From the NCBI GenBank assembly GCA_964483325.1, contig CAZAAW010000002.1:88226-152225 (forward strand): 64,000 bases of DNA, in the 5' to 3' direction. The DNA is from an uncultured Hyphomicrobiales bacterium (GTDB taxonomy: Bacteria; Pseudomonadota; Alphaproteobacteria; Rhizobiales; Kaistiaceae). The notes beneath the pieces are model-generated. The model was not told the origin of the DNA and did no database searches. It was given only the letters and a program-made list of their open reading frames with translations. This document shows, piece after piece, positions 9,709-64,000 of the stretch. The translations under genes were made by a program, and so were the position numbers. Numbering within the stretch: position 1 is the stretch's first letter; the number at the start of each line of letters is the position of its first letter.

Positions 9709-9783
9709 GCGGGTGTAGCTCAGGGGTAGAGCACAACCTTGCCAAGGTTGGGGTCGTGGGTTCGAATCCCATCGCCCGCTCCA
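9709..9783 (+). tRNA. tRNA-Gly (anticodon GCC)
   Basis: GCGGGTGTAGCTCAGGGGTAGAGCACAACCTTGCCAAGGTTGGGGTCGTGGGTTCGAATCCCATCGCCCGCTCCA. It has a 7-bp acceptor stem, the anticodon loop CTTGCCAAG, a GGTTCGAATCC T-loop and an encoded CCA. Confidence 0.95.
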
Positions 9784-56557: not shown

Positions 56558-57457
56558 CTATTCGACGACCTGGTACTCGACGCGGCGGTCGAAGGCGAAG
56601 ATCTGGTCCTCGCTGTACTTGCTGGCGTCGTCGGGCGTGAACGGCTCCGACTCGCCGCGGGCGCTGATCTCGATCGGCATCCGGTAGCCGAGCTGCTTCA
56701 GGTAGTCGGCGACGCTGCGCGCCCGGCGGTCGGAGAGGTCGAGATTATACTGGTCCGAGCCACGCGGGTCGGTATGGCCGATGATCACCAGCTTGGCCGC
56801 CGGCACATCCTTGACGTAGTCGAAGATGTTCTGGACAGCGGCAATGCCGGCCGAGGTCAGGTCCGCCGATCCGGTATCGAACTGCACCGGCACCGGCACG
56901 GAGGTGGCGGTGAAGGTGCGGAAATGCGGGTCGGCGAGGCCGCTGACGCGGCCGCGGAAGGCACGGCTGGCGATGAAGGTCGGCGCCAGAGCGCGTGCCT
57001 GGACGGCGCGCTTGTAGGTCCGCTGCTCGACATCGGCGGGCGGCGCCTGCGGATTGGCGGCCGTGTCGCGCATGTCGTCGAGCGCCTCCTCATAGGTGGC
57101 GACGGCGCTCGCCCATTCCTCGCGGTCGTAATAGGCGTCGCCGAGGGCGACGAGCACCTGCCACGGCCGGCCATAGCGCGTCACGGCGCTGATGTCGGCC
57201 GGGGCAACGTCTGTTTGCAGCTCCGTCAGGGCGATGCGCGCCATCATGCGGCCGATCTGGCTGCGGAAATTGGCGTCGCAGGTGGGATCGCCCTGCATGG
57301 TCTGGAAGAGGCCGTCGAAGCGCTCGATGGAGCGCGACTGAAGCGCCGAGGTGATGTCGTCGTTCAGGGCGGCGCATTCGGCAGCCGCCGGACCCGCCGA
57401 CAGCGCCAGAAGCGCCATCGGCAGGGCGGCGGCCGCCCACAGGCGGGCAGCGCGCAT
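56558..57457 (-). CDS. secreted OmpA-C-like peptidoglycan-binding protein
   Basis: Signal peptide (ALPMALLALSAGPAAAE). C-terminal OmpA motif LVIIGHTDPRGSDQYNLDLSDRRARSVADYL. Its start is 1 nt after the stop of the upstream gene. Confidence 0.85.
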   Translation of the reverse strand: MRAARLWAAAALPMALLALSAGPAAAECAALNDDITSALQSRSIERFDGLFQTMQGDPTCDANFRSQIGRMMARIALTELQTDVAPADISAVTRYGRPWQVLVALGDAYYDREEWASAVATYEEALDDMRDTAANPQAPPADVEQRTYKRAVQARALAPTFIASRAFRGRVSGLADPHFRTFTATSVPVPVQFDTGSADLTSAGIAAVQNIFDYVKDVPAAKLVIIGHTDPRGSDQYNLDLSDRRARSVADYLKQLGYRMPIEISARGESEPFTPDDASKYSEDQIFAFDRRVEYQVVE

Positions 57458-57458
57458 C

Positions 57459-60218
57459 TTACTGCACCTGCAGCTTGATCGCCGAGCGCACGACGATGTC
57501 GTCGGCGGCCGGCGGGGCCGGCGGAGCCGCAGCGGGGATCTGCTGCTGCTGGGCGGCGGCCTCGATGATGATCTGGCGGGTGCGGGTCACCTGCTGGGCA
57601 ATATGCTGCTCATAATTGCCGATGTCGGTGAACTGCGCCTGCCGGAAGTTGTGCTGGATGTCGTCGACCGGCTTGTTCAGCACGCTGCATACCGCGATCA
57701 CCGTCTCCTCGCCATGATCCCGGAAGCGGAACTGGTAGGGAGCGCCGGCCGCCGGGAACTGGAAGTCCCTGCCGGCGACGATGGCATTGTTCTGCTCGAA
57801 GCTGTTCGGGTACAGCACCGTCGCCGTGCCCTTGCCGTCGACATTGATCAGCGTCAGGTAGCAGTCACGCTTGGTGCTGATGGTGAACACCGGCAGGTCA
57901 CCGACGCGGTAGGCGGCGGCGTTGGCGGTGATGGCGAAGTCGAAGTTGTGCGCGACGTCCGGCGCGGCGATCTGCGCGACGGTGACGACCGGCACCGGCC
58001 CGACCTCCTGCTTGAGGCTGGCAAGGTCCAGCATCTCGTCGTCGGAGACGCGCTCGACGAGGGCCGAGAACAGCCCCTCGAGATTGTCGCGCGGCACCAG
58101 GCCCTGGTCGAGACGCCGCTGCAGGCGGACGGCTTCGTCGGTGCCGGCGGTGGCCAGCGAGGCCTCGAACTCCTCCAACGGCTGGCCGAACTCGGCAGCC
58201 ACGAGACGAAGGTCGACGGCGCTTTCGAACTTGTTCGACAGCGCGTTGATCATCTCGACGCCGTTGAGTTTCAGCGTCGGATCAAGGCCGGCGGCCCGCA
58301 TCGCATTGATGAAGCGCTGCGTGTCGCCTTCCAGCAGGGCGTCCATCCTGTCATGGGGCGGATAGAGCGCCGCCACGGCCTCGCGTGCCGCCCGCGGGAA
58401 GGTGCGGCTGGCGAGAACCTGATCGCGGACCTCGTCGCGCGCCTTGCGGATGCCCTGGTCGTGGCAGCCCATGCAGGAGATGCCGTTGGTCACCGTCAGG
58501 TCGCGCCGCGAGATGTCGCGGACGATCGTCGTCGGACCCTTGGGAATGTGCGCGCCGGCCGACGTGTTCAGGTAGTAGCCCTGGAAGCCGTTCGGCAGGG
58601 AGAAGATCGACTCGCCGCCATCATGATGGAAGGCGAACTCGCCGTCGCCCGGCCCGAGCGGGAACTCGAACAGGCTCTGCCGCTCCCTGTTGCCGGCGAA
58701 GTCGTAGGAGGTCCAGAGGTAGCCGGTGCTGATCGGATGACGCTCGATCAGGCGGTTGTTCTGCGACACGCCCGACTGCTGGAAGGCGGCGCGCTGGGCG
58801 ATGAACCGGTTCAGATTGCCGGCGATATCGACATTCAGGTAGCGCTCGAACTCGGAAAAGTCGCTTGCCACGCCGTTGGCCGGCAGCCCGAGCAGCTGTT
58901 CGTAGAGCGGCGGCTGGGCGGCGGTGAAGGCGAACCAGTCGCCCCGGATATAGGGCAGCAGCGTCAGCGTCGCCGACGACACGAAGTCGAACATCGGGCT
59001 GTCGGGCTTGCTGGCATAGGGATAGACCGAGATGAGCTTGTCCCAGTCGGTCGCCGACCAGCCGACATCCTTCAGATTGAAGCGGATGATCGTCCCGGCG
59101 TCGTTGATGGCCTCGAGGCGCACGACGTCGGAGACGCGCGACAGCGAGTTCAGCAGCTTCACGACGGCCTGGCGATAGACCTCCATCTCCTGGTCGCTGG
59201 AGCAGGCATTGTAGAGATGCGTCAGCGTGATGTAGCGCGTGTCGGCAATGCGCGTCGGCGGCAGGTTCTGGATGTCCCGGGCCATGGCCTCGGTCTCCAT
59301 CACCGGCGTGATGAACTCGCGCGTGCTGCAGGCGGCCGCAACGTTGGCGCCGAGCGATTCGACCCAGGTGCGCAGGGCCGCGACATCCGCTTCCGTCGGC
59401 GGCTCGCCGCTGAACTCGTAGAAGACATCATACGGCATTTCCTGGTTGAGGATCTGCTGGATGAGCTTGGAGCCGTCGGGATTGCCGGGGGCGATGCGCA
59501 CCGGGTCTGCGGCGATCTCGTCGAGATGCAGGATATTGCCGAAATTCTTCGCCGGCTTGGCACGGCCGCCGAGCATGCCGTCCTGGTGGCAGCGGGCGCA
59601 GTGGCGGTCCAGCACGTCGAAGGCGGCGGCGGCGATTGGATCGGCCGGGCGCTCGATGCCCGGCGGCAGGGCTGCCACGTTAACCGGCGCTGCCGGGGCG
59701 GCCGGTGCTGCCGGAGCGGCGACCGCGGGCGGCGCGTCCGCCGGGCCGACGACGCCCGGGATCTCGATGCCGTCGAGCGGATCACCGGCCGGCGCGGCCG
59801 GCTGCTGCGCGATGGCCGGCGGAGCGGCAGGCGCATCAGCCGGCTGATCGATAACGCCGGGAATCTCGATGCCGGCGAGCGGATCGTCGTCCGGCGCGTC
59901 AGGCTGCTGCGCAATCGCCGGCGGAGCGGCGGGCGCATCGGCCGGCTGGTCGACGACGCCGGGGATCTCGATACCGGCCAGCGGGTCGTCGTCCGGCGCA
60001 TCGGCGGCCGGTCCGTCGACGACGCCGGGAATGTTGATGCCGGCGAGCGGATCGTCGGCGGGGGCGGCGGAGGCGCCGGGCTCGACCGTCAGCTGGCGCG
60101 GCGGCTGGGCGCCGTTCGCCGGCGGGTCGTCCTGCGCCAGCACCGCCGTCGCGGTGATGGCGACCGTGCCGCTGAGCAGCAGCGCGGTGCAGGTTATCTT
60201 TGCGTATCGGGCAAACAT
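57459..60218 (-). CDS. secreted 919-aa protein with Pro/Ala-rich tandem repeats, two CxxCH haem-c motifs and a C-terminal DUF4384-like domain
   Basis: Start taken at MFARYAKIT (ATG at 60218, with GGAGG 5 nt upstream). The signal peptide ends AVLAQ. CARCH is at 59586-59600 and CMGCH at 58461-58475. The C-terminal VGDLPVFTISTKRDCYLTLINVDGKGTATVLYPN pattern is also present. Confidence 0.8.
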   Translation of the reverse strand: MFARYAKITCTALLLSGTVAITATAVLAQDDPPANGAQPPRQLTVEPGASAAPADDPLAGINIPGVVDGPAADAPDDDPLAGIEIPGVVDQPADAPAAPPAIAQQPDAPDDDPLAGIEIPGVIDQPADAPAAPPAIAQQPAAPAGDPLDGIEIPGVVGPADAPPAVAAPAAPAAPAAPVNVAALPPGIERPADPIAAAAFDVLDRHCARCHQDGMLGGRAKPAKNFGNILHLDEIAADPVRIAPGNPDGSKLIQQILNQEMPYDVFYEFSGEPPTEADVAALRTWVESLGANVAAACSTREFITPVMETEAMARDIQNLPPTRIADTRYITLTHLYNACSSDQEMEVYRQAVVKLLNSLSRVSDVVRLEAINDAGTIIRFNLKDVGWSATDWDKLISVYPYASKPDSPMFDFVSSATLTLLPYIRGDWFAFTAAQPPLYEQLLGLPANGVASDFSEFERYLNVDIAGNLNRFIAQRAAFQQSGVSQNNRLIERHPISTGYLWTSYDFAGNRERQSLFEFPLGPGDGEFAFHHDGGESIFSLPNGFQGYYLNTSAGAHIPKGPTTIVRDISRRDLTVTNGISCMGCHDQGIRKARDEVRDQVLASRTFPRAAREAVAALYPPHDRMDALLEGDTQRFINAMRAAGLDPTLKLNGVEMINALSNKFESAVDLRLVAAEFGQPLEEFEASLATAGTDEAVRLQRRLDQGLVPRDNLEGLFSALVERVSDDEMLDLASLKQEVGPVPVVTVAQIAAPDVAHNFDFAITANAAAYRVGDLPVFTISTKRDCYLTLINVDGKGTATVLYPNSFEQNNAIVAGRDFQFPAAGAPYQFRFRDHGEETVIAVCSVLNKPVDDIQHNFRQAQFTDIGNYEQHIAQQVTRTRQIIIEAAAQQQQIPAAAPPAPPAADDIVVRSAIKLQVQ
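59748..60056 (-). repeat. in-frame tandem repeat encoding four DPL(A/D)GI(E/N)IPGV(V/I) units separated by Pro/Ala-rich spacers
   Basis: DDPLAGINIPGVVDGPAADAPD / DDPLAGIEIPGVVDQPADAPAAPPAIAQQPDAPD / DDPLAGIEIPGVIDQPADAPAAPPAIAQQPAAPAG / DPLDGIEIPGVV. Two central units of about 100 nt are near-identical. Confidence 0.8.
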
Positions 60219-60295
60219 CGTCGCCTCCATTCGGCTCAAGCAGATTTGAGGCTCAAGACCTCTGTTGCGGGGTCCGCATGGCTCGGTTCGTTCTT

Positions 60296-61783
60296 CTATT
60301 TTATTTCATAGCGCAGCACGGCCACCGACCAGTCATGCGAAACCGTCGGCTCGGTCACGGCTGCCGTCTGGGCAGGTGCGTTGAGGGCTGCGGCAATGGC
60401 CGGCAGGAACTCCTGCGTCGCCTCCTGCCGCGGAATGACCTCGATGCTGCGGGTCTTGACGGTCGGCGGCATCTCCACCGGGCCGTTGGTAACAAGGGCG
60501 ATCAGCGTGCCGCGCGACGGCGAGGTGGCATCGAAGCTGATGCCGTAATAGGCGTCCGGCACGGTGATCGGGCTGTTCGGCAGGATGACGCCAACGCGGC
60601 CGTCGCGGCGCGTGTGCTCGTTGGGGAAGAGCTGCACCAGCGTGCCGTCGTCCGACAGGTCGAGCAGCACCAGGTCGCCCTCGACCGGGCTGGTGACGGT
60701 GAAGCGGATATTGCGCGTGCCGAGCCGCACCGGCGACGGCGGGTCCTGGCTGAGCGTGACGTTGAGCGTGTTGCCCTTGCCGAAATAGTCGAGGATCTGG
60801 TCGGTGGTCAGCATCGGCGGCTCCGCCTGCGCCACGGCAACCACCGGCGCCGGCGCGAGAAGCGTGCTGCCGGCCGCGGCGGCGGGGCCGAGCGTCGGCG
60901 TCAGGCCGAGCGAGCAGCCCTCGACCGTCGCGCAGGCCTGCTGCGCCTGGTCGCGCAGATAGGCCAGCACTTCGGCATTGGAGACGGTGCCGTTGCCATT
61001 GGCGTCGGCGCCGGCCTGGGCGAGGGCGGCAACGAAAGCCGCGGTGAAGACACCCTCGCCGTCGGCGACGAGGGCCGTCTGGCCGCCGGCGGCGGCGGTG
61101 AAGACGGCGACGTCGCCGGACAGGCGATCGGTATCGAGGGCCGGACCTTCCGCCTTCTGCGCCTGCGCCGCCGGCTCGACGACGATCGAGCGGGTACGGT
61201 TGGCGATGATCGGGGCGCGGAAAGCGGCGCTCGGCGTGAAGGAGGTTTCCGCGTCGGCGGTCACGACGCCGGAATAGCCGGCATCGATCACCACCGACAC
61301 CTTGCGTCCAGTCATGGCGTCGATGAGCAGATTGAGCTCGTCGTCGCTGATCATGCCGGTGACGGCGCTGCCGACCACCTTGGCGTCGAAGGGCACCAGC
61401 GTCTCGTCGAGGCCGTCGGCCTCGTCGCCATCGTCGTCCGGCTGGAAGTAGCCGTAGCCGGAATAATAGAGAAAGACCCGCTCGCCCGGCTTGGTGCCGC
61501 TGACCAGCCAGTCGGTGATCGCCGACTTGATCCCCTCCAGCGTCGCCTCCTCGTTGGCGACGACGCGGATGTCGCTGTCGCCGTAGCCCAGCGTCTCGGT
61601 CAGGAGGCGCTGCACGGCGGCGATGTCGCGGCCGGCCGTGCCGAGCCCGGCGCTGCCCAGGGCGCTGTCGGCATAATGGTCGATGCCGATGAGAAGGGCG
61701 CGGTCGGCAAGGGCCGGCACGGCGGCCGCCGCCAGCATGGCGGCCGCTGCCGCACCCGAGAGGAGGAAGCGCCGGAGCGACAT
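60296..61783 (-). CDS. secreted pseudo-caspase (peptidase C14 fold, catalytic His and Cys both replaced) with an EF-hand loop and a DUF4384-like C-terminal domain
   Basis: Start at MSLRRFLLSG; the ATG shares one base with the upstream TAA. RALLIGIDHY, YYSGYGYF (Tyr at 61454-61456 where His is expected) and VIDAGYSG (Gly at 61277-61279 where Cys is expected). The first ~375 aa of the 870-aa track ORF are a shadow frame over the upstream gene. Confidence 0.8.
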   Translation of the reverse strand: MSLRRFLLSGAAAAAMLAAAAVPALADRALLIGIDHYADSALGSAGLGTAGRDIAAVQRLLTETLGYGDSDIRVVANEEATLEGIKSAITDWLVSGTKPGERVFLYYSGYGYFQPDDDGDEADGLDETLVPFDAKVVGSAVTGMISDDELNLLIDAMTGRKVSVVIDAGYSGVVTADAETSFTPSAAFRAPIIANRTRSIVVEPAAQAQKAEGPALDTDRLSGDVAVFTAAAGGQTALVADGEGVFTAAFVAALAQAGADANGNGTVSNAEVLAYLRDQAQQACATVEGCSLGLTPTLGPAAAAGSTLLAPAPVVAVAQAEPPMLTTDQILDYFGKGNTLNVTLSQDPPSPVRLGTRNIRFTVTSPVEGDLVLLDLSDDGTLVQLFPNEHTRRDGRVGVILPNSPITVPDAYYGISFDATSPSRGTLIALVTNGPVEMPPTVKTRSIEVIPRQEATQEFLPAIAAALNAPAQTAAVTEPTVSHDWSVAVLRYEIK

Positions 61784-63384
61784 TACTGGTCTCCCGAGGT
61801 GTAGATGCCGACAAGGCCGACCTGGAACTTCGTGTCGCCGAGGACCGTCGCCAGCGTCGAGGCAAGACCGGTGGCGCGGTCGGCGGTGCCCATCGTCCGC
61901 AGCGCCGCATGGAGGGCCGTGGCCGGCTCGGCGGTCAGGATGGCAACCAGATGCTCGGCGCCGAAGGGCGGATCCTGGACGCGCAGGCGCTGGCTCATCT
62001 CCTGGCCGGTCCAGTCGGTCAGCGTCTCCTCGCGGTTCTGCGGGATGAAGAATTCCACCCGGCCGTTGGGCGGCAGGTTGAACAGCGTCAGGTAGGGCAG
62101 CGTCGCCCCGCTCATGCGGAACTCGACGATGTCGCCGCGGCGGTTGACCTGGTTGCCGCTGGTCAAGGTCAGCGACAGCGGGTCGGCGGCGGCATGCGCC
62201 TTGAGATAGGCCAGTGCCGACCATTTCGAGAGCACGGCGGCAATGCCGTCGGGGCCGATCTGCTCGGCGACGCGGCCGCCGATGCGGTGGTCGACAGTGC
62301 CGGCGGCGACGTCCCAGATGAGGTCGGCCTCGGCTTCGTCGGTCGTCTGGGCGACGCCGGTCATTTCCGGCAGCGCCGCGTCGCCGCGGACGAGGACGCG
62401 CACCAGGATATCCTGCGGCGTCGTGGCGACGGTCGGCGCCTCGATGCTGCGATTGATGCGGATGACGGGCTTGGCGTCGGCGCCCAGCGGCAGCACGGAC
62501 GGGATCTGCTGGTTCTCGGCCTGGGTCTCGACCGTCGGCACCAGATAGGACAGCAGCTCCTGCTGGCTGAGGGCGCCGTCGCCATCCTTGTCGGCGGCGC
62601 CTTCGAGGGCGCGCGAGAAGGCCCAGCTGAGGGCGCCGCGCGGCTTGCCGTCGATCGTCAGCTCCGGCGTCAGCCGCCCCTCCTGGGTGGCGCCGATGAA
62701 GGTGACGGCCGAGAAATCCTCCTCGCCCATCTGGGCGAATTGCGGCCCGGGCAGCCGCAGCAGGTCGTCGGTCAGCGACGGATCCTCGAACGTGCCGGTG
62801 CGGTAGCGCACGGTGCGGCTGGAAATGTCGCGATACATCGTGCCGGAATGGCAGGAATCGGCGACGAACACGACCTCCAGGCCCTTGTCGTCGCCGGCCT
62901 TCAGCCACTCGAACATCTCGTCGTCGACGATGCGCTCCAGCGAGCCGGGGCCGCTCGGCGTATAGCCGCCAAGGAGGAAATTCTCGTTGAGGCCGTCCTC
63001 CTCGAAGTGCTGGCCCGGCGGCTCCGGCTCCTGGCTGCCATGACCGGCATAGGAGAAGATGACGGTGTCGCCGGGCTGCGCGGCATTGATCAGCCGGAAC
63101 CAGTTCTCCTGGATGGCGGCCTTGGTGGCCTGTGCGTCGGTGAGCAGCACGACTTCGGAAGCGCCGGCCTTGCGCAGCGTCTCGGCGATATCCTGCGCGT
63201 CGTTGACGGCGCCGAAGAGATCGTTGGCCGTGCCGACATAGTCGTCGATGCCGATGACGAGGCCGTAGGTGGCCGCCGCTGCCGGGAGAGCCGGAAGCGC
63301 CGCCGCGGCGAGACCGGCAAAGCCGATCAGCGGCGCGGCCCTTCGCATCCTGCGCAGCGATCCCATTAGCGTCGTCATGGACAT
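61783..63384 (-). CDS. secreted caspase-like cysteine protease (peptidase C14) with an EF-hand loop and a DUF4384-like C-terminal domain
   Basis: Signal peptide (APLIGFAGLAAAALPALPAAAA). YGLVIGIDDY, SYAGHGSQ (His codon 63040-63042) and VADSCHSG (Cys codon 62851-62853). EF-hand DKDGDGALSQQE. C-terminal GDIVEFRMSGATLPYLTLFNLPPNGRVEFFIPQN. Confidence 0.85.
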   Translation of the reverse strand: MSMTTLMGSLRRMRRAAPLIGFAGLAAAALPALPAAAATYGLVIGIDDYVGTANDLFGAVNDAQDIAETLRKAGASEVVLLTDAQATKAAIQENWFRLINAAQPGDTVIFSYAGHGSQEPEPPGQHFEEDGLNENFLLGGYTPSGPGSLERIVDDEMFEWLKAGDDKGLEVVFVADSCHSGTMYRDISSRTVRYRTGTFEDPSLTDDLLRLPGPQFAQMGEEDFSAVTFIGATQEGRLTPELTIDGKPRGALSWAFSRALEGAADKDGDGALSQQELLSYLVPTVETQAENQQIPSVLPLGADAKPVIRINRSIEAPTVATTPQDILVRVLVRGDAALPEMTGVAQTTDEAEADLIWDVAAGTVDHRIGGRVAEQIGPDGIAAVLSKWSALAYLKAHAAADPLSLTLTSGNQVNRRGDIVEFRMSGATLPYLTLFNLPPNGRVEFFIPQNREETLTDWTGQEMSQRLRVQDPPFGAEHLVAILTAEPATALHAALRTMGTADRATGLASTLATVLGDTKFQVGLVGIYTSGDQ

Positions 63385-63474: not shown

Positions 63475-64000
63475 TTACTGCGCCTGCGCCGCTTCCGGCT
63501 CCGCCGCTGCCGCGGCCGGCGCCGAGGTGATCGGCGGCCGGCTCATCAGGTAAGCGACGATGGCCTTCTGGTCCGCCTCCGGCAGGGCCTGCAATTCGCG
63601 CAGCACCTTGCCCATGCCGCCGCTGGAGATCGGCTTGCCGTCGGCATTGAGGCCGAACATGAAGACGTTGAACATGAAGTCGTCCAGCGTCAGCTTGCCG
63701 ATGCCGGTTTCCTTGTCCGGCGTCAGGTTGGGAACCGAACCGCGGCCTTCCAGCGACGGTCCGCCCGCCAGCTCGCGGCTCTCGTCAGGGCCGAGGATGA
63801 GGTTGCGCGGCGTATGGCACTCGCCGCAATGGCCGGGACCGCGCACCAGATAGGCGCCGTGGTTGACCTCCTCGCTGGCATCGGGGTCGGGCTCGAAGGT
63901 CTTGCCGTCGATATAGAGGAGCTTCCACAGGCCGACGCCGCGCCGGATGTTGAACGGGAACGGCAGGTCGGTTGCCGGCGGCTGGTTGGCGACCGGCGGC
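63475..64000 (-). CDS. c-type cytochrome, C-terminal part of a multihaem dehydrogenase-type cytochrome c subunit; 5' end outside the window
   Basis: The frame stays open to nt 64000 (PPVANQPPATDLPFPFNIRRGVGLWKLLYIDGKTFEPDPDASEEVNHGAYLVRGPGHCGECHTPRN). This pattern is typical of the third haem domain of membrane-bound alcohol/gluconate dehydrogenase cytochrome subunits. Confidence 0.75.
   Translation of the reverse strand, partial: PPVANQPPATDLPFPFNIRRGVGLWKLLYIDGKTFEPDPDASEEVNHGAYLVRGPGHCGECHTPRNLILGPDESRELAGGPSLEGRGSVPNLTPDKETGIGKLTLDDFMFNVFMFGLNADGKPISSGGMGKVLRELQALPEADQKAIVAYLMSRPPITSAPAAAAAEPEAAQAQ

What the first reader, a model, noticed from the sequence alone, without database searches (positions are those of the whole stretch)
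60296..61783. Pseudo-caspase: both catalytic dyad residues substituted while the fold, EF-hand and signal peptide are retained
The two paralogues align by eye as follows:
- SYAGHGSQ (active) versus YYSGYGYF here. The His is replaced by Tyr at codon 61454-61456.
- VADSCHSG (active) versus VIDAGYSG here. The Cys is replaced by Gly at codon 61277-61279.

The ORF is otherwise intact at 495 aa with no frameshift or stop. It keeps the LLIGIDHY strand, the EF-hand-type loop and the C-terminal domain, and it is translationally coupled to the active enzyme. This looks like a maintained non-catalytic partner (regulator, decoy or scaffold) and not a decaying pseudogene.
Basis: seen in the sequence. Interest (0 to 1): 0.62.

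Follow-up and report, generated by a model that had tools for sequence, protein, structure and literature searches.

The report
Secreted catalytically dead bacterial caspase homologue
This gene encodes an exported caspase-like protein that has lost both catalytic residues yet is kept under strong selection next to an intact sister enzyme in a conserved five-gene cell-envelope operon, so it is a working non-cutting protein, of a kind (pseudo-orthocaspase) already known in bacteria.

Summary
Window 60296..61783 (-) encodes an intact 495-aa Peptidase_C14 protein. Alignments to solved metacaspases place Tyr110 at the catalytic His and Gly169 at the catalytic Cys.

It is not decaying.
- About 57 orthologues at 41-78% identity are all intact, and 57 of 58 carry Gly at the Cys position.
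- dN/dS is 0.16-0.18 in unsaturated pairs, equal to the neighbouring genes.
- A strain about 2% diverged shows 23 synonymous and 3 non-synonymous codon changes.

The His position drifts (L/H/Q/N/Y/M/A). Both S1-pocket aspartates, the acidic metacaspase hairpin and an EF-hand-type loop stay nearly invariant.

The gene occupies a fixed slot in a conserved operon: cytochrome c, active caspase, this gene, a two-CxxCH DUF4384 protein, and an OmpA-like protein. The stop/start overlap with the active caspase is conserved. In basal lineages the same slot still carries His and Cys, so inactivation happened in place.

My best reading is a periplasmic subunit that binds but does not cleave. Pairing with the active caspase is inferred, not shown.

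Pseudo-orthocaspases are already described (Klemencic 2019). The Gly type, the DUF4384 architecture and the operon are not among the common variants it names. I rate it a new variant of a known kind, of moderate interest.

The parts
60296..61783 (-). Pseudo-orthocaspase gene, 495 aa plus stop: signal peptide, caspase-fold domain, linker, DUF4384-type domain
   Evidence: ORF and sequence. Pfam PF00656 at 61.5 bits. AF2 pLDDT 90.1. Foldseek best matches are metacaspases.
61706..61783 (-). N-terminal export signal, aa 1-26: MSLRRFLLSGAAAAAMLAAAAVPALA, with ALA|D as the likely cleavage site
   Evidence: Sequence. Low-confidence N-terminal helix 6-18 in the model. The heuristic is met in 41 of 47 family members. 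Twin-Arg occurs in only 14 of the 47 scorable members, so this is probably a Sec signal, not Tat. No dedicated predictor was available.
60884..61702 (-). Caspase/haemoglobinase-fold domain, aa 28-300, catalytically disabled
   Evidence: Domain-specific omega is 0.13-0.15.
61454..61456 (-). Codon 110, TAC = Tyr, at the catalytic His position
   Evidence: In the family this column reads L24/H11/Q10/N8/Y3/M1; the remaining sequence, P0063, has Ala.
61277..61279 (-). Codon 169, GGC = Gly, at the catalytic Cys position
   Evidence: Gly in 57 of 58 family members. It is the same change as the laboratory-inactivated TbMCA2 C213G in PDB 4af8 (PMC4357240).
60968..61006 (-). EF-hand-type loop DANGNGTVSNAEV, aa 260-272, between two predicted helices
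   Evidence: Pattern match in 53 of 58 family members and 12 of 16 orthologues of the active paralogue. Helix 245-255, loop, helix 269-286 in the model. D260 and G265 are invariant.
60299..60793 (-). C-terminal DUF4384-type beta-sandwich domain with conserved tail, aa 331-495
   Evidence: Pfam PF14326 at 22.2 bits, below cut-off. hhalign to the DUF4384 of the next gene gives 97.2% probability, E 4e-11. AF2 pLDDT 84. Omega 0.18-0.19.
61781..61785 (-). TAATG stop/start overlap with the upstream active caspase gene
   Evidence: Overlaps of 1 or 4 nt, or gaps of 4-7 nt, at the same junction in orthologous loci.
61783..63384 (-). Upstream paralogue, 533 aa, with intact His115/Cys178 (SYAGHGSQ, VADSCHSG), a signal peptide, an EF-hand-type loop and a divergent DUF4384-like C-terminus
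   Evidence: His and Cys are kept in all 15 orthologues that cover the site. C-terminus against DUF4384 gives 94.5% probability.
57459..60239 (-). Downstream gene, 926 aa by the mechanical ORF. The likely start is the ATG at 60218, preceded by GGAGG. It has a signal peptide, Pro/Ala-rich tandem repeats, two conserved CxxCH motifs and a C-terminal DUF4384.
   Evidence: CxxCH x2 in every full-length orthologue. Cytochrom_C is above the Pfam cut-off in the L005 orthologue. Tandem repeats.
56558..57457 (-). Last gene of the operon: exported TPR + OmpA-like peptidoglycan-binding protein, 299 aa
   Evidence: Pfam OmpA at 59.8 bits. NCBIfam OmpA/Pal-type matches, all below the equivalog cut-offs. Conserved at this position in orthologous loci.
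63475..64000 (-). First gene of the operon: c-type cytochrome (CGECH), cut off by the end of the window
   Evidence: Full-length orthologues of 308-320 aa match Pfam Cytochrom_C at 35-41 bits against a 21.3 cut-off. Present upstream of the caspase genes in 13 of the fetched loci.
56509..56533 (-). Terminator-like hairpin (11-bp stem followed by a T-rich tail) just after the OmpA-like gene
   Evidence: This is a consensus scan only.

Best explanation
The gene encodes an exported (periplasmic or envelope) caspase-fold protein that cannot perform cysteine-protease chemistry: Cys is replaced by Gly and His by Tyr. It is nevertheless maintained as a functional protein.

Shown:
- Loss of the dyad.
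- Retention of the fold.
- Purifying selection on the caspase-like domain as well as the C-terminal domain.
- A fixed position in a conserved operon: cytochrome c, active orthocaspase, this gene, a DUF4384 protein with two CxxCH motifs, and an OmpA-like protein.
- Inactivation in place from a His/Cys ancestor occupying the same slot.

Inferred:
- The two S1-pocket aspartates, the acidic metacaspase hairpin and the EF-hand-type loop stay nearly invariant while the former His position drifts. I therefore infer that the protein still binds Ca2+ and Arg/Lys-containing peptide segments without cutting them.
- It would then act as the non-catalytic binding or regulatory subunit of an envelope-anchored complex. 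It would be made in step with the active caspase through the stop/start overlap.
- The DUF4384 domain shared by three operon proteins would hold the complex together.
For: Dyad loss at the homologous positions. Cys-to-Gly is the very mutation used to make inactive TbMCA2 (4af8 reads FDCGHSG; 'inactive (C213G/A) mutant', PMC4357240). It was also used for AtMC9 C147G, which is the best structural match.

Fold: AF2 pLDDT 90.1, pTM 0.90. Foldseek E 1e-12 to 1e-8 against metacaspases, GSU0716 and MALT1.

Selection:
- Omega 0.18 and 0.16 in the two unsaturated orthologue pairs, against 0.13-0.15 (active paralogue), 0.16-0.18 (DUF4384 gene) and 0.20 (OmpA gene).
- Caspase domain alone: 0.13-0.15.
- Near-identical strain: 27 base differences in 26 codons, 23 of them synonymous, 3 amino-acid changes, no indel. 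P is about 3e-10 under neutrality.

Conservation pattern in the 58-member family:
- G169 57/58, D53 57/58, D167 58/58.
- D116, D120, E121, D123, D126, E127, D133, D147 and D148 each at least 47/58.
- R198, K210, C284 and C290 each 58/58.
- His position L24/H11/Q10/N8/Y3/M1.

Operon: the same gene order in the loci whose contigs reach that far, with start/stop overlap or a gap of 7 nt or less. The slot-1 caspase always keeps His and Cys. A terminator-like hairpin follows the OmpA gene.

In-place inactivation: slot-2 proteins with HC (P0060, P0066) and with HS (P0036) were looked up and sit in the same operon. In an NJ tree all Cys-less forms make one clade nested among HC forms.

Shared domain: the DUF4384-type C-termini of all three proteins match each other.

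Fusion proteins OmpA+C14+DUF4384 occur among more distant homologues, which links these parts functionally.
Against: - No physical or expression data exist. Only DNA metagenome runs hold the sequence.
- Two related contigs (L017, L018) carry Ser-type pseudo-caspases directly after the cytochrome gene, with no active caspase between them. The pseudo-enzyme can therefore persist without that neighbour.
- In one lineage (L019) the caspase-like domain has in-frame deletions that remove the acidic hairpin and the DAGxSG segment, while the DUF4384 part stays well conserved. The caspase-like half is therefore not indispensable everywhere.
- Metacaspases are active monomers (PMC4357240), so a caspase-8/cFLIP-style heterodimer cannot be assumed.
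- Klemencic et al. (PMC6426788) argue that prokaryotic pseudo-orthocaspases probably do not regulate true ones.
- Model coordinates could not be inspected, so pocket geometry and Ca2+ ligation rest on alignment alone.
Confidence: 0.6

Rival explanations
1. It acts as a substrate or decoy, not as a binding subunit. The active neighbour cuts it in the conserved inter-domain linker, as T. brucei pseudo-metacaspase MCA4 is processed by MCA3. The processed form, or the competition for the protease, would be the function.
For: R189 (57/58), R198 and K210 (both 58/58) sit in a conserved motif TRSIVVEP.A.AQKAEG. This lies between the strand that carried the Cys and the next core strand, the region where caspase-family proteins are processed. 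The enzymes of this family cut after Arg/Lys (PMC6426788). The precedent of TbMC4 processed by TbMC3 is quoted in PMC6426788. Co-translation with the active enzyme is suggested by the stop/start overlap.
Against: A pure substrate or decoy would not need its own S1 aspartates, Ca2+-type loop and an invariant Gly to be conserved. Ser-type relatives lack the adjacent protease. No cleavage data exist.
Confidence: 0.15
2. Its function is independent of the active caspase. It would work only with the haem/DUF4384 and OmpA-like proteins, for example as a structural or sensing envelope component. The neighbouring active caspase would then be merely co-located.
For: L017 and L018 have cytochrome followed directly by the pseudo-caspase, with no slot-1 caspase; in L018 the DUF4384 protein follows. 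In L019 the caspase half erodes while the DUF4384 half is kept. Published opinion holds that prokaryotic pseudo-orthocaspases act independently of true ones (PMC6426788).
Against: In the Gly-type clade every locus that extends far enough upstream has the intact caspase directly in front, usually with overlapping stop and start. The caspase-like domain is under the same constraint as the DUF4384 domain.
Confidence: 0.2
3. It is still a hydrolase that uses non-canonical residues, for example the conserved Ser171 of GYSG.
For: Ser171 (56/58) and Gly172 (58/58) are conserved. One orthologue was auto-named 'acetyl esterase/lipase' by a source. Some relatives carry His plus Ser at the dyad.
Against: The Ser-Gly after the nucleophile is conserved in active family members too (DSCHSG), so it is not a new feature. 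The general-base position is L/Q/N/Y/M/A/H across orthologues, which is incompatible with a conserved catalytic role. The C213G and C147G metacaspases are the inactive forms used for crystallography.
Confidence: 0.03
4. It is a decaying pseudogene that happens still to be open.
For: Loss of both catalytic residues.
Against: Full-length open orthologues at 41-78% identity with the same substitution. Omega 0.16-0.18, and about 0.05 at short range. Indels seen in related strains add or remove bases in multiples of three. The AF2 model is confident.
Confidence: 0.01

Closest known systems
Bacterial pseudo-orthocaspases (Klemencic, Asplund-Samuelsson, Dolinar & Funk 2019, PMC6426788)
   Same: Both are prokaryotic p20/caspase-fold proteins with a substituted His-Cys dyad. 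Both keep the fold and the two acidic S1-pocket residues. Both are abundant in Alphaproteobacteria (582 sequences, 96% of them in Rhizobiales) and have an N-terminal export-type signal. The substitution type goes with a fixed domain architecture.
   Different: The common dyads reported there are YS, YA, FS, QC and HA. The word 'glycine' does not occur in the main text, and I did not search its supplement.

Here the nucleophile position is an almost invariant Gly while the His position varies. DUF4384 is reported there only for the trypsin-QC type. The word 'operon' does not occur in its main text either, and its Discussion judges a link to true orthocaspases unlikely. Here the gene is locked behind an intact paralogue in a five-gene operon.
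Trypanosoma brucei MCA4 (pseudo-metacaspase with a YS dyad, processed by MCA3)
   Same: A catalytically dead C14 member that works together with an active paralogue. The fold and a Tyr at the His position are the same (as quoted in PMC6426788).
   Different: MCA4 is eukaryotic and cytosolic or lipidated, has Ser rather than Gly, and has no DUF4384. Processing of the window protein is untested.
cFLIP-L / caspase-8
   Same: A dead paralogue encoded next to, or acting with, a live caspase and modulating it by direct association (as quoted in PMC6426788).
   Different: cFLIP works by beta6-mediated heterodimerisation, which is typical of animal caspases. Metacaspase-type proteins are monomers (PMC4357240). 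No evidence here for or against a heterodimer.
Laboratory mutants TbMCA2 C213G (PDB 4af8) and AtMC9 C147G (PDB 9n3d/e/f)
   Same: The identical Cys-to-Gly replacement in the same motif (D-x-C-H-S-G becomes D-x-G-x-S-G). These are folded, inactive proteins used for crystallography.
   Different: They are engineered single mutants. The natural protein also lost the His and has evolved for a long time since.
OmpA-C14-DUF4384 fusion proteins and single-gene C14-DUF4384 proteins with an intact dyad (P0068-P0096 and most of the 1056 representatives)
   Same: The same domain pair, an export signal and the EF-hand-type loop. These are the active relatives from which the pseudo clade descends.
   Different: They keep His and Cys: 126 of the 142 newly examined representatives.

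Membership tests
Peptidase C14 / caspase-haemoglobinase fold (Pfam PF00656) | Significant match to the family profile | tested here: met
   61.5 bits against a gathering cut-off of 21.4, E 1.2e-16, residues 28-260. phmmer to Yca1, CgMCA1, TbMCA2 and AtMC4 gives E 2e-12 to 5e-7.
Peptidase C14 / caspase-haemoglobinase fold (Pfam PF00656) | Caspase-type alpha/beta fold | tested here: met
   AF2 pLDDT 90.1. Foldseek probability 1.00 to AtMC9, GSU0716, AtMC4, Yca1, MALT1 and caspases.
Peptidase C14 as an active enzyme | Catalytic His after strand beta3 | tested here: not met
   Tyr110 aligns with the His of HYSGHG.
Peptidase C14 as an active enzyme | Catalytic Cys after strand beta4 | tested here: not met
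   Gly169 aligns with the Cys of DSCHSG.
Pseudo-orthocaspase (definition of PMC6426788) | Prokaryotic p20-domain protein with at least one dyad residue substituted | tested here: met
   The bacterial origin is inferred from the chromosomal context (FtsK, TsaD, ArgG, BipA) and from alphaproteobacterial MAG names of relatives.
Pseudo-orthocaspase (definition of PMC6426788) | No metacaspase-type p10 domain (this separates ortho- from metacaspases) | tested here: inconclusive
   The paper's p10 profile was not available. The Pfam match stops at model position 197 of 233. The model does have the two core strands and helices that follow the linker (224-286). No solved-structure alignment extended past residue 192 for this protein.
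Pseudo-orthocaspase (definition of PMC6426788) | Acidic S1 pocket retained (equivalents of TbMCA2 Asp95 and Asp211) | tested here: met
   D53 aligns with the D of GCIND in Yca1, and D167 with the D of DSC. They are conserved in 57/58 and 58/58 family members. The residue roles are taken from PMC6426788 and PMC4357240. The ungapped TbMCA2 alignment is out of register at D53.
EF-hand | Canonical 12-residue loop (D-x-[DNS]-x-[DNS]-G-x-[ILV]-x-x-x-E) between two helices | tested here: met
   DANGNGTVSNAE at 260-271. The regular expression was written from my memory of the PROSITE EF-hand pattern. 53 of 58 family members match it. Helices flank the loop in the model.
EF-hand | Match to a curated EF-hand profile, and paired EF-hands | tested here: not met
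   No EF-hand family in the Pfam scan at E <= 0.01. Only one loop per protein. Ca2+ binding itself cannot be tested with these tools.
DUF4384 (Pfam PF14326) | Match to the family profile | tested here: inconclusive
   The window protein scores 22.2 bits against a cut-off of 27. Most orthologues carry a precomputed PF14326 hit. hhalign of the family's C-terminus against the DUF4384 region of the next gene gives 97.2% probability, E 4e-11.
cFLIP-like or TbMCA4-like regulator of an active paralogue | Physical association with, or processing by, the active paralogue | not testable with these tools
   Only indirect evidence: conserved adjacency and stop/start overlap, and invariant R198 and K210 in the linker.
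Anti-phage defence caspase systems (PADLOC) | Match to a defence-system model together with its partner genes | tested here: not met
   Only a generic 'caspase' model hit covering about a third of the model, and MotB/ZorB-like OmpA similarity. No system partners were found. All operon products carry export signals.

The most novel reading that the evidence does not exclude
The five genes would encode a previously undescribed periplasmic machine. In it, c-type haem proteins, a live orthocaspase, a dead orthocaspase that serves as a Ca2+-dependent Arg/Lys-peptide receptor, and an OmpA-like peptidoglycan anchor assemble through a shared DUF4384 domain. Proteolysis in the cell envelope would then be gated by redox state and/or calcium, with the pseudo-enzyme as the gatekeeper or substrate selector.
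Probability: 0.2. Interest if true: 0.7.

Novelty: new variant of a known kind. Interest (0 to 1): 0.45.

Why it matters
Dead enzymes kept by selection are a recurring puzzle. For bacterial caspase homologues, no function of a pseudo-variant is understood.

This locus offers a clean natural series: the same operon slot is occupied by His/Cys, His/Gly, His/Ser and fully substituted forms. The order of events is clear. The nucleophile was lost once and the general base then drifted, while the substrate pocket, the acidic hairpin and the Ca2+-type loop stayed fixed.

A defined set of candidate partners is written into the operon. That turns 'what do pseudo-orthocaspases do?' into a directly testable question: binding, processing, complex formation and envelope phenotype.

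It also runs against the published expectation that bacterial pseudo-orthocaspases are unconnected to active ones. The practical weight is limited, because the carriers are uncultured alphaproteobacteria from sludge and soil metagenomes and the class itself is already known.

Tried and rejected
Orthologous loci came instead from exact look-ups and one metagenome scan.
- An exact look-up of the window protein itself found nothing on record, so the source organism is not identified. Cluster look-ups gave only MAG names: Hyphomicrobiaceae and Alphaproteobacteria.
- dN/dS between the window and its nearest fetched orthologues is saturated. pS plateaus near 0.45-0.5 and omega is inflated to about 0.5 for all four genes alike. 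I therefore relied on two unsaturated pairs and on a strain about 2% diverged found in public runs.
- No RNA run holds the sequence, so co-transcription could not be checked.
- The separate model of the C-terminal domain has pLDDT 84. It gave only weak, generic Ig-like or beta-sandwich matches with E >= 0.006, so there is no functional lead.
- NCBIfam, PADLOC and a sequence search of the PDB with the large DUF4384 protein gave nothing specific.
- Model coordinates are not exposed to the script environment. Pocket geometry, the position of the conserved linker and the free edge strand could not be examined.
- A Tat signal was considered because of SLRRFLL. It was set aside because twin arginines occur in only 14 of the 47 scorable family members.
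- The decaying-pseudogene and alternative-nucleophile readings are rejected for the reasons given under rival explanations.
Full report
OBSERVATION

The minus-strand ORF at 60296..61783 is intact, at 495 codons. Its ATG shares one base with the TAA stop of the upstream 533-aa gene (TAATG at 61781-61785), and a GGGAG motif lies a few bases upstream. Both proteins match Pfam Peptidase_C14 well above the curated threshold, at 61.5 and 60.1 bits against 21.4. They are 29% identical over 259 residues.

That pairwise alignment puts YSGYG under YAGHG and DAGYSG under DSCHSG. phmmer alignments to solved metacaspases give the same register against yeast Yca1 (HYSGHG, DSCHSG), the Candida glabrata enzyme and T. 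brucei MCA2. So does a 58-sequence family profile. Codon 110 (61454-61456, TAC) is Tyr and codon 169 (61277-61279, GGC) is Gly.

FOLD AND RETAINED FEATURES

With a 58-sequence alignment, AlphaFold2 gives pLDDT 90.1 and pTM 0.90. The best Foldseek matches in the PDB are Arabidopsis metacaspase 9 and 4, Geobacter GSU0716, yeast and Candida metacaspases, MALT1 and animal caspases, with E from 1e-12 to 1e-5.

- The N-terminus (MSLRRFLLSGAAAAAMLAAAAVPALA|D) has the look of a Sec signal. A crude rule (basic start, hydrophobic core, small-x-small) is met by 41 of 47 scorable family members, and twin arginines are present in only 14. The other operon products start the same way.
- DANGNGTVSNAEV (aa 260-272) fits the canonical EF-hand loop pattern, which I wrote from memory of PROSITE. 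It lies between two predicted helices. It is found in 53 of 58 family members and in 12 of 16 orthologues of the active paralogue. No curated EF-hand profile matched.
- The C-terminal 165 residues are a DUF4384-type beta-sandwich. They are sub-threshold in Pfam for this protein, at 22.2 bits against 27. Against the DUF4384 of the next gene they reach 97% probability in a profile-profile comparison.
- The C-terminus of the active paralogue belongs to the same domain type, at 94.5% probability.

NOT A PSEUDOGENE

A search of 5.8 billion proteins returned 96 relatives. About 60 of them, down to 42% identity, are full-length and have Gly at the Cys position. The more distant ones keep His and Cys.

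In the curated 58-member alignment, Gly169 is present in 57. The His position reads L24, H11, Q10, N8, Y3, M1, with Ala in the remaining sequence, P0063.

Nei-Gojobori estimates on codon alignments from fetched loci are saturated for distant pairs. In the two unsaturated pairs (dS 0.4-0.5) they give omega 0.18 and 0.16 for this gene. The same pairs give 0.13-0.15 for the active caspase, 0.16-0.18 for the DUF4384 gene and 0.20 for the OmpA-like gene. Split by domain, the caspase-like part has omega 0.13-0.15, the DUF4384 part 0.18-0.19 and the linker 0.3-0.5.

Public metagenome runs (sludge, wastewater, rhizosphere) hold closely related strains. One contig covers the whole gene with 27 base differences and no indel. 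These fall in 26 codons, of which 23 are synonymous and 3 change the protein: A11T in the signal peptide, S44T and E79A. That corresponds to omega of roughly 0.05 and P of about 3e-10 under neutrality. Indels seen in other strains across the operon add or remove bases in multiples of three.

WHAT STAYED AND WHAT DRIFTED

The residues that line the basic-residue S1 pocket of metacaspases are TbMCA2 Asp95 and Asp211 (PMC6426788; PMC4357240). By alignment they correspond to D53 and D167, which are present in 57/58 and 58/58 family members.

The acidic hairpin that follows the His strand reads D-x-x-G-D-E-x-D-G-x-D-E-x-x-x-P-x-D, and a DD pair lies further on. It is almost as similar to Yca1 as the active enzymes are and is conserved at 47/58 or better at every acidic position. 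Part of this region forms the allosteric Ca2+ site in TbMCA2. The ligand numbers are from my memory of McLuskey et al. 2012, and one search shows only that such a site exists.

Also invariant are R198 and K210 in a conserved linker motif, and C284 and C290, which could form a disulphide in an exported protein. Selection is therefore protecting the binding apparatus but not the catalytic base.

Cys-to-Gly is the same substitution that experimenters used to obtain inactive, crystallisable TbMCA2 (4af8 reads FDCGHSG; 'inactive (C213G/A) mutant') and AtMC9 C147G.

GENOMIC SETTING

Exact look-ups of six relatives and a metagenome scan gave 19 loci that carry a slot-2 relative. Wherever the contig is long enough, the order is:

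1. c-type cytochrome (308-320 aa)
2. intact caspase (about 535 aa)
3. this gene (about 490 aa)
4. DUF4384 protein of 760-930 aa
5. TPR/OmpA-like protein (about 297 aa)

This order is seen. The surrounding genes differ between loci, so the five-gene block is the conserved unit.

At the junction between the two caspase genes there is a 1-nt or 4-nt overlap or a gap of 4-7 nt. The slot-1 caspase keeps His and Cys in all 15 orthologues that cover the site. The large DUF4384 protein has two CxxCH motifs in every full-length orthologue. It reaches the Pfam Cytochrom_C threshold in one orthologue, as do the orthologues of the first gene.

In the window the first gene is cut by the window end (63475..64000), and a terminator-like hairpin follows the last gene at 56533-56509. 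The flanks are ordinary chromosomal genes: methyltransferase, MBOAT, E1 dehydrogenase, BipA, ArgG, TsaD and FtsK.

More distant homologues fuse OmpA, caspase and DUF4384 in one polypeptide (P0078-P0091), which ties these parts together functionally.

HISTORY

In some lineages the slot-2 protein still has His and Cys (P0031, P0032, P0060, P0066, L012), or Gln/Cys (L021), or His/Ser (P0036). The operon is unchanged in the three of these whose contigs were looked up: P0060, P0066 and P0036.

A neighbour-joining tree, without support values, places all Cys-less forms in one clade nested within His/Cys forms. His is retained in several sub-branches (HG) and replaced many times independently. The simplest reading is that the nucleophile was lost once in place, after which the general base became free to vary.

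An exhaustive profile search of 1.84 billion representatives found 1056 proteins at E <= 1e-30. Of the 142 new top representatives, 126 keep His/Cys and the rest are Gly- or Ser-type. The pseudo clade is thus a small branch of a large family of exported caspase-DUF4384 proteins.

MECHANISM

Shown: the protein cannot use the canonical Cys-His chemistry, it folds as a caspase-like domain plus a beta-sandwich, it is under purifying selection in both domains, and it is an obligate member of the operon in the Gly clade.

Inferred: it binds Ca2+ and basic peptide segments without cleaving them, and serves as a non-catalytic subunit of an envelope-anchored complex built from the operon products. That subunit could be a selector, regulator or scaffold. 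The shared DUF4384 domain is the likely assembly module, and the OmpA-like protein the likely anchor to peptidoglycan.

Three observations limit this reading.
- L017 and L018 carry Ser-type pseudo-caspases directly after the cytochrome gene with no intact caspase in between.
- In L019 the caspase-like half has in-frame deletions that remove the acidic hairpin and the DAGxSG segment, while the DUF4384 half remains well conserved.
- Metacaspase-type enzymes are monomers, so a cFLIP-like heterodimer cannot be presumed.

The invariant R198/K210 linker also fits a TbMCA4-like scenario, in which the active neighbour processes the pseudo-enzyme. Both that reading and a function independent of the active caspase are kept as rivals.

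COMPARISON WITH THE LITERATURE

Pseudo-orthocaspases are a described class (PMC6426788). They make up 8.6% of bacterial caspase homologues, with 582 in Alphaproteobacteria, almost all in Rhizobiales. The usual dyads are YS, YA, FS, QC and HA, each tied to one architecture, and the acidic pocket is conserved.

- The paper's main text names no Gly variant. The word 'glycine' does not occur in it, and I did not search its supplement.
- It reports DUF4384 only for the trypsin-QC type.
- The word 'operon' does not occur in its main text either. Its Discussion considers a link to active orthocaspases unlikely.
- It proposes a tie to photosynthesis. Nothing in this window speaks to that.

Full-text searches for DUF4384 with caspase, and for orthocaspase with periplasm, found no description of this operon. 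No curated NCBIfam or PADLOC model covers the proteins.

VERDICT

It is a new variant of a known kind: a Gly-type, DUF4384-bearing, exported pseudo-orthocaspase fixed in a cytochrome/caspase/OmpA operon. I rate it of moderate interest. Its main value is as a tractable system for asking what dead bacterial caspases do.

Noticed in passing
window 57459-60239 (-), repeats at 59747-60086: The large DUF4384 protein has 2-2.5 tandem copies of a 102-nt (34-aa) Pro/Ala-rich unit (…DDPLAGIEIPGVVDQPADAPAAPPAIAQQP…) after its signal peptide. Two CxxCH motifs (CARCH, CMGCH) are conserved in all full-length orthologues. The mechanical TTG start at 60239 is probably wrong: an ATG at 60218 is preceded by GGAGG. 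One related strain carries a 9-nt in-frame insertion at 59729, just upstream of the 102-nt repeats and next to a short 18-nt repeat at 59684-59720.
   Followed up: partly
L019 3735-4919: In this orthologous operon the active caspase is 60% identical to the window's. The slot-2 protein has lost, in frame, the acidic hairpin and the DAGxSG segment of the caspase-like domain, while its DUF4384 half stays well conserved. This looks like erosion of the dead domain in one lineage.
   Followed up: partly
L017 610-2274 and L018 3163-4788: These are Ser-type pseudo-caspases (dyads LS and YS, about 540-555 aa) so diverged that Pfam no longer detects the C14 domain. They sit directly after the cytochrome gene with no intact caspase in between. 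In L017 a different 717-aa protein with a C14 domain follows.
   Followed up: partly
proteins P0078-P0091 and P0086: More distant homologues with an intact dyad fuse OmpA + caspase + DUF4384 in one chain. One fuses caspase + DUF4384 + a trypsin-like domain. These are Rosetta-stone-type support for a peptidoglycan-anchored periplasmic protease module.
   Followed up: no
L005 3547-5223 (-) and L027 13086-14972 (+): Some orthologous loci carry a third caspase-domain gene next to the operon. One has a faint SH3_3 hit. No such extra copy was found anywhere in the 64-kb window.
   Followed up: partly
window 61171 and 61332-61333: Contigs from related strains show in-frame 3-nt insertions within the pseudo-caspase gene, one near the E203-A205 linker and one near codon 150. 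They were seen only at partial depth in metagenome assemblies, so their linkage to this genome is uncertain.
   Followed up: no
window 63475-64000 (-): The first gene of the operon, a c-type cytochrome with CGECH, runs off the end of the window. Full-length orthologues are 308-320 aa and appear to have two haem-binding regions.
   Followed up: partly
protein P0011: One source names an orthologue 'acetyl esterase/lipase'. Nothing in the sequence supports that, so it looks like an automatic mis-annotation.
   Followed up: no
window 9709-9780 (+): A single tRNA gene is the only Rfam match in the window at gathering thresholds.
   Followed up: no
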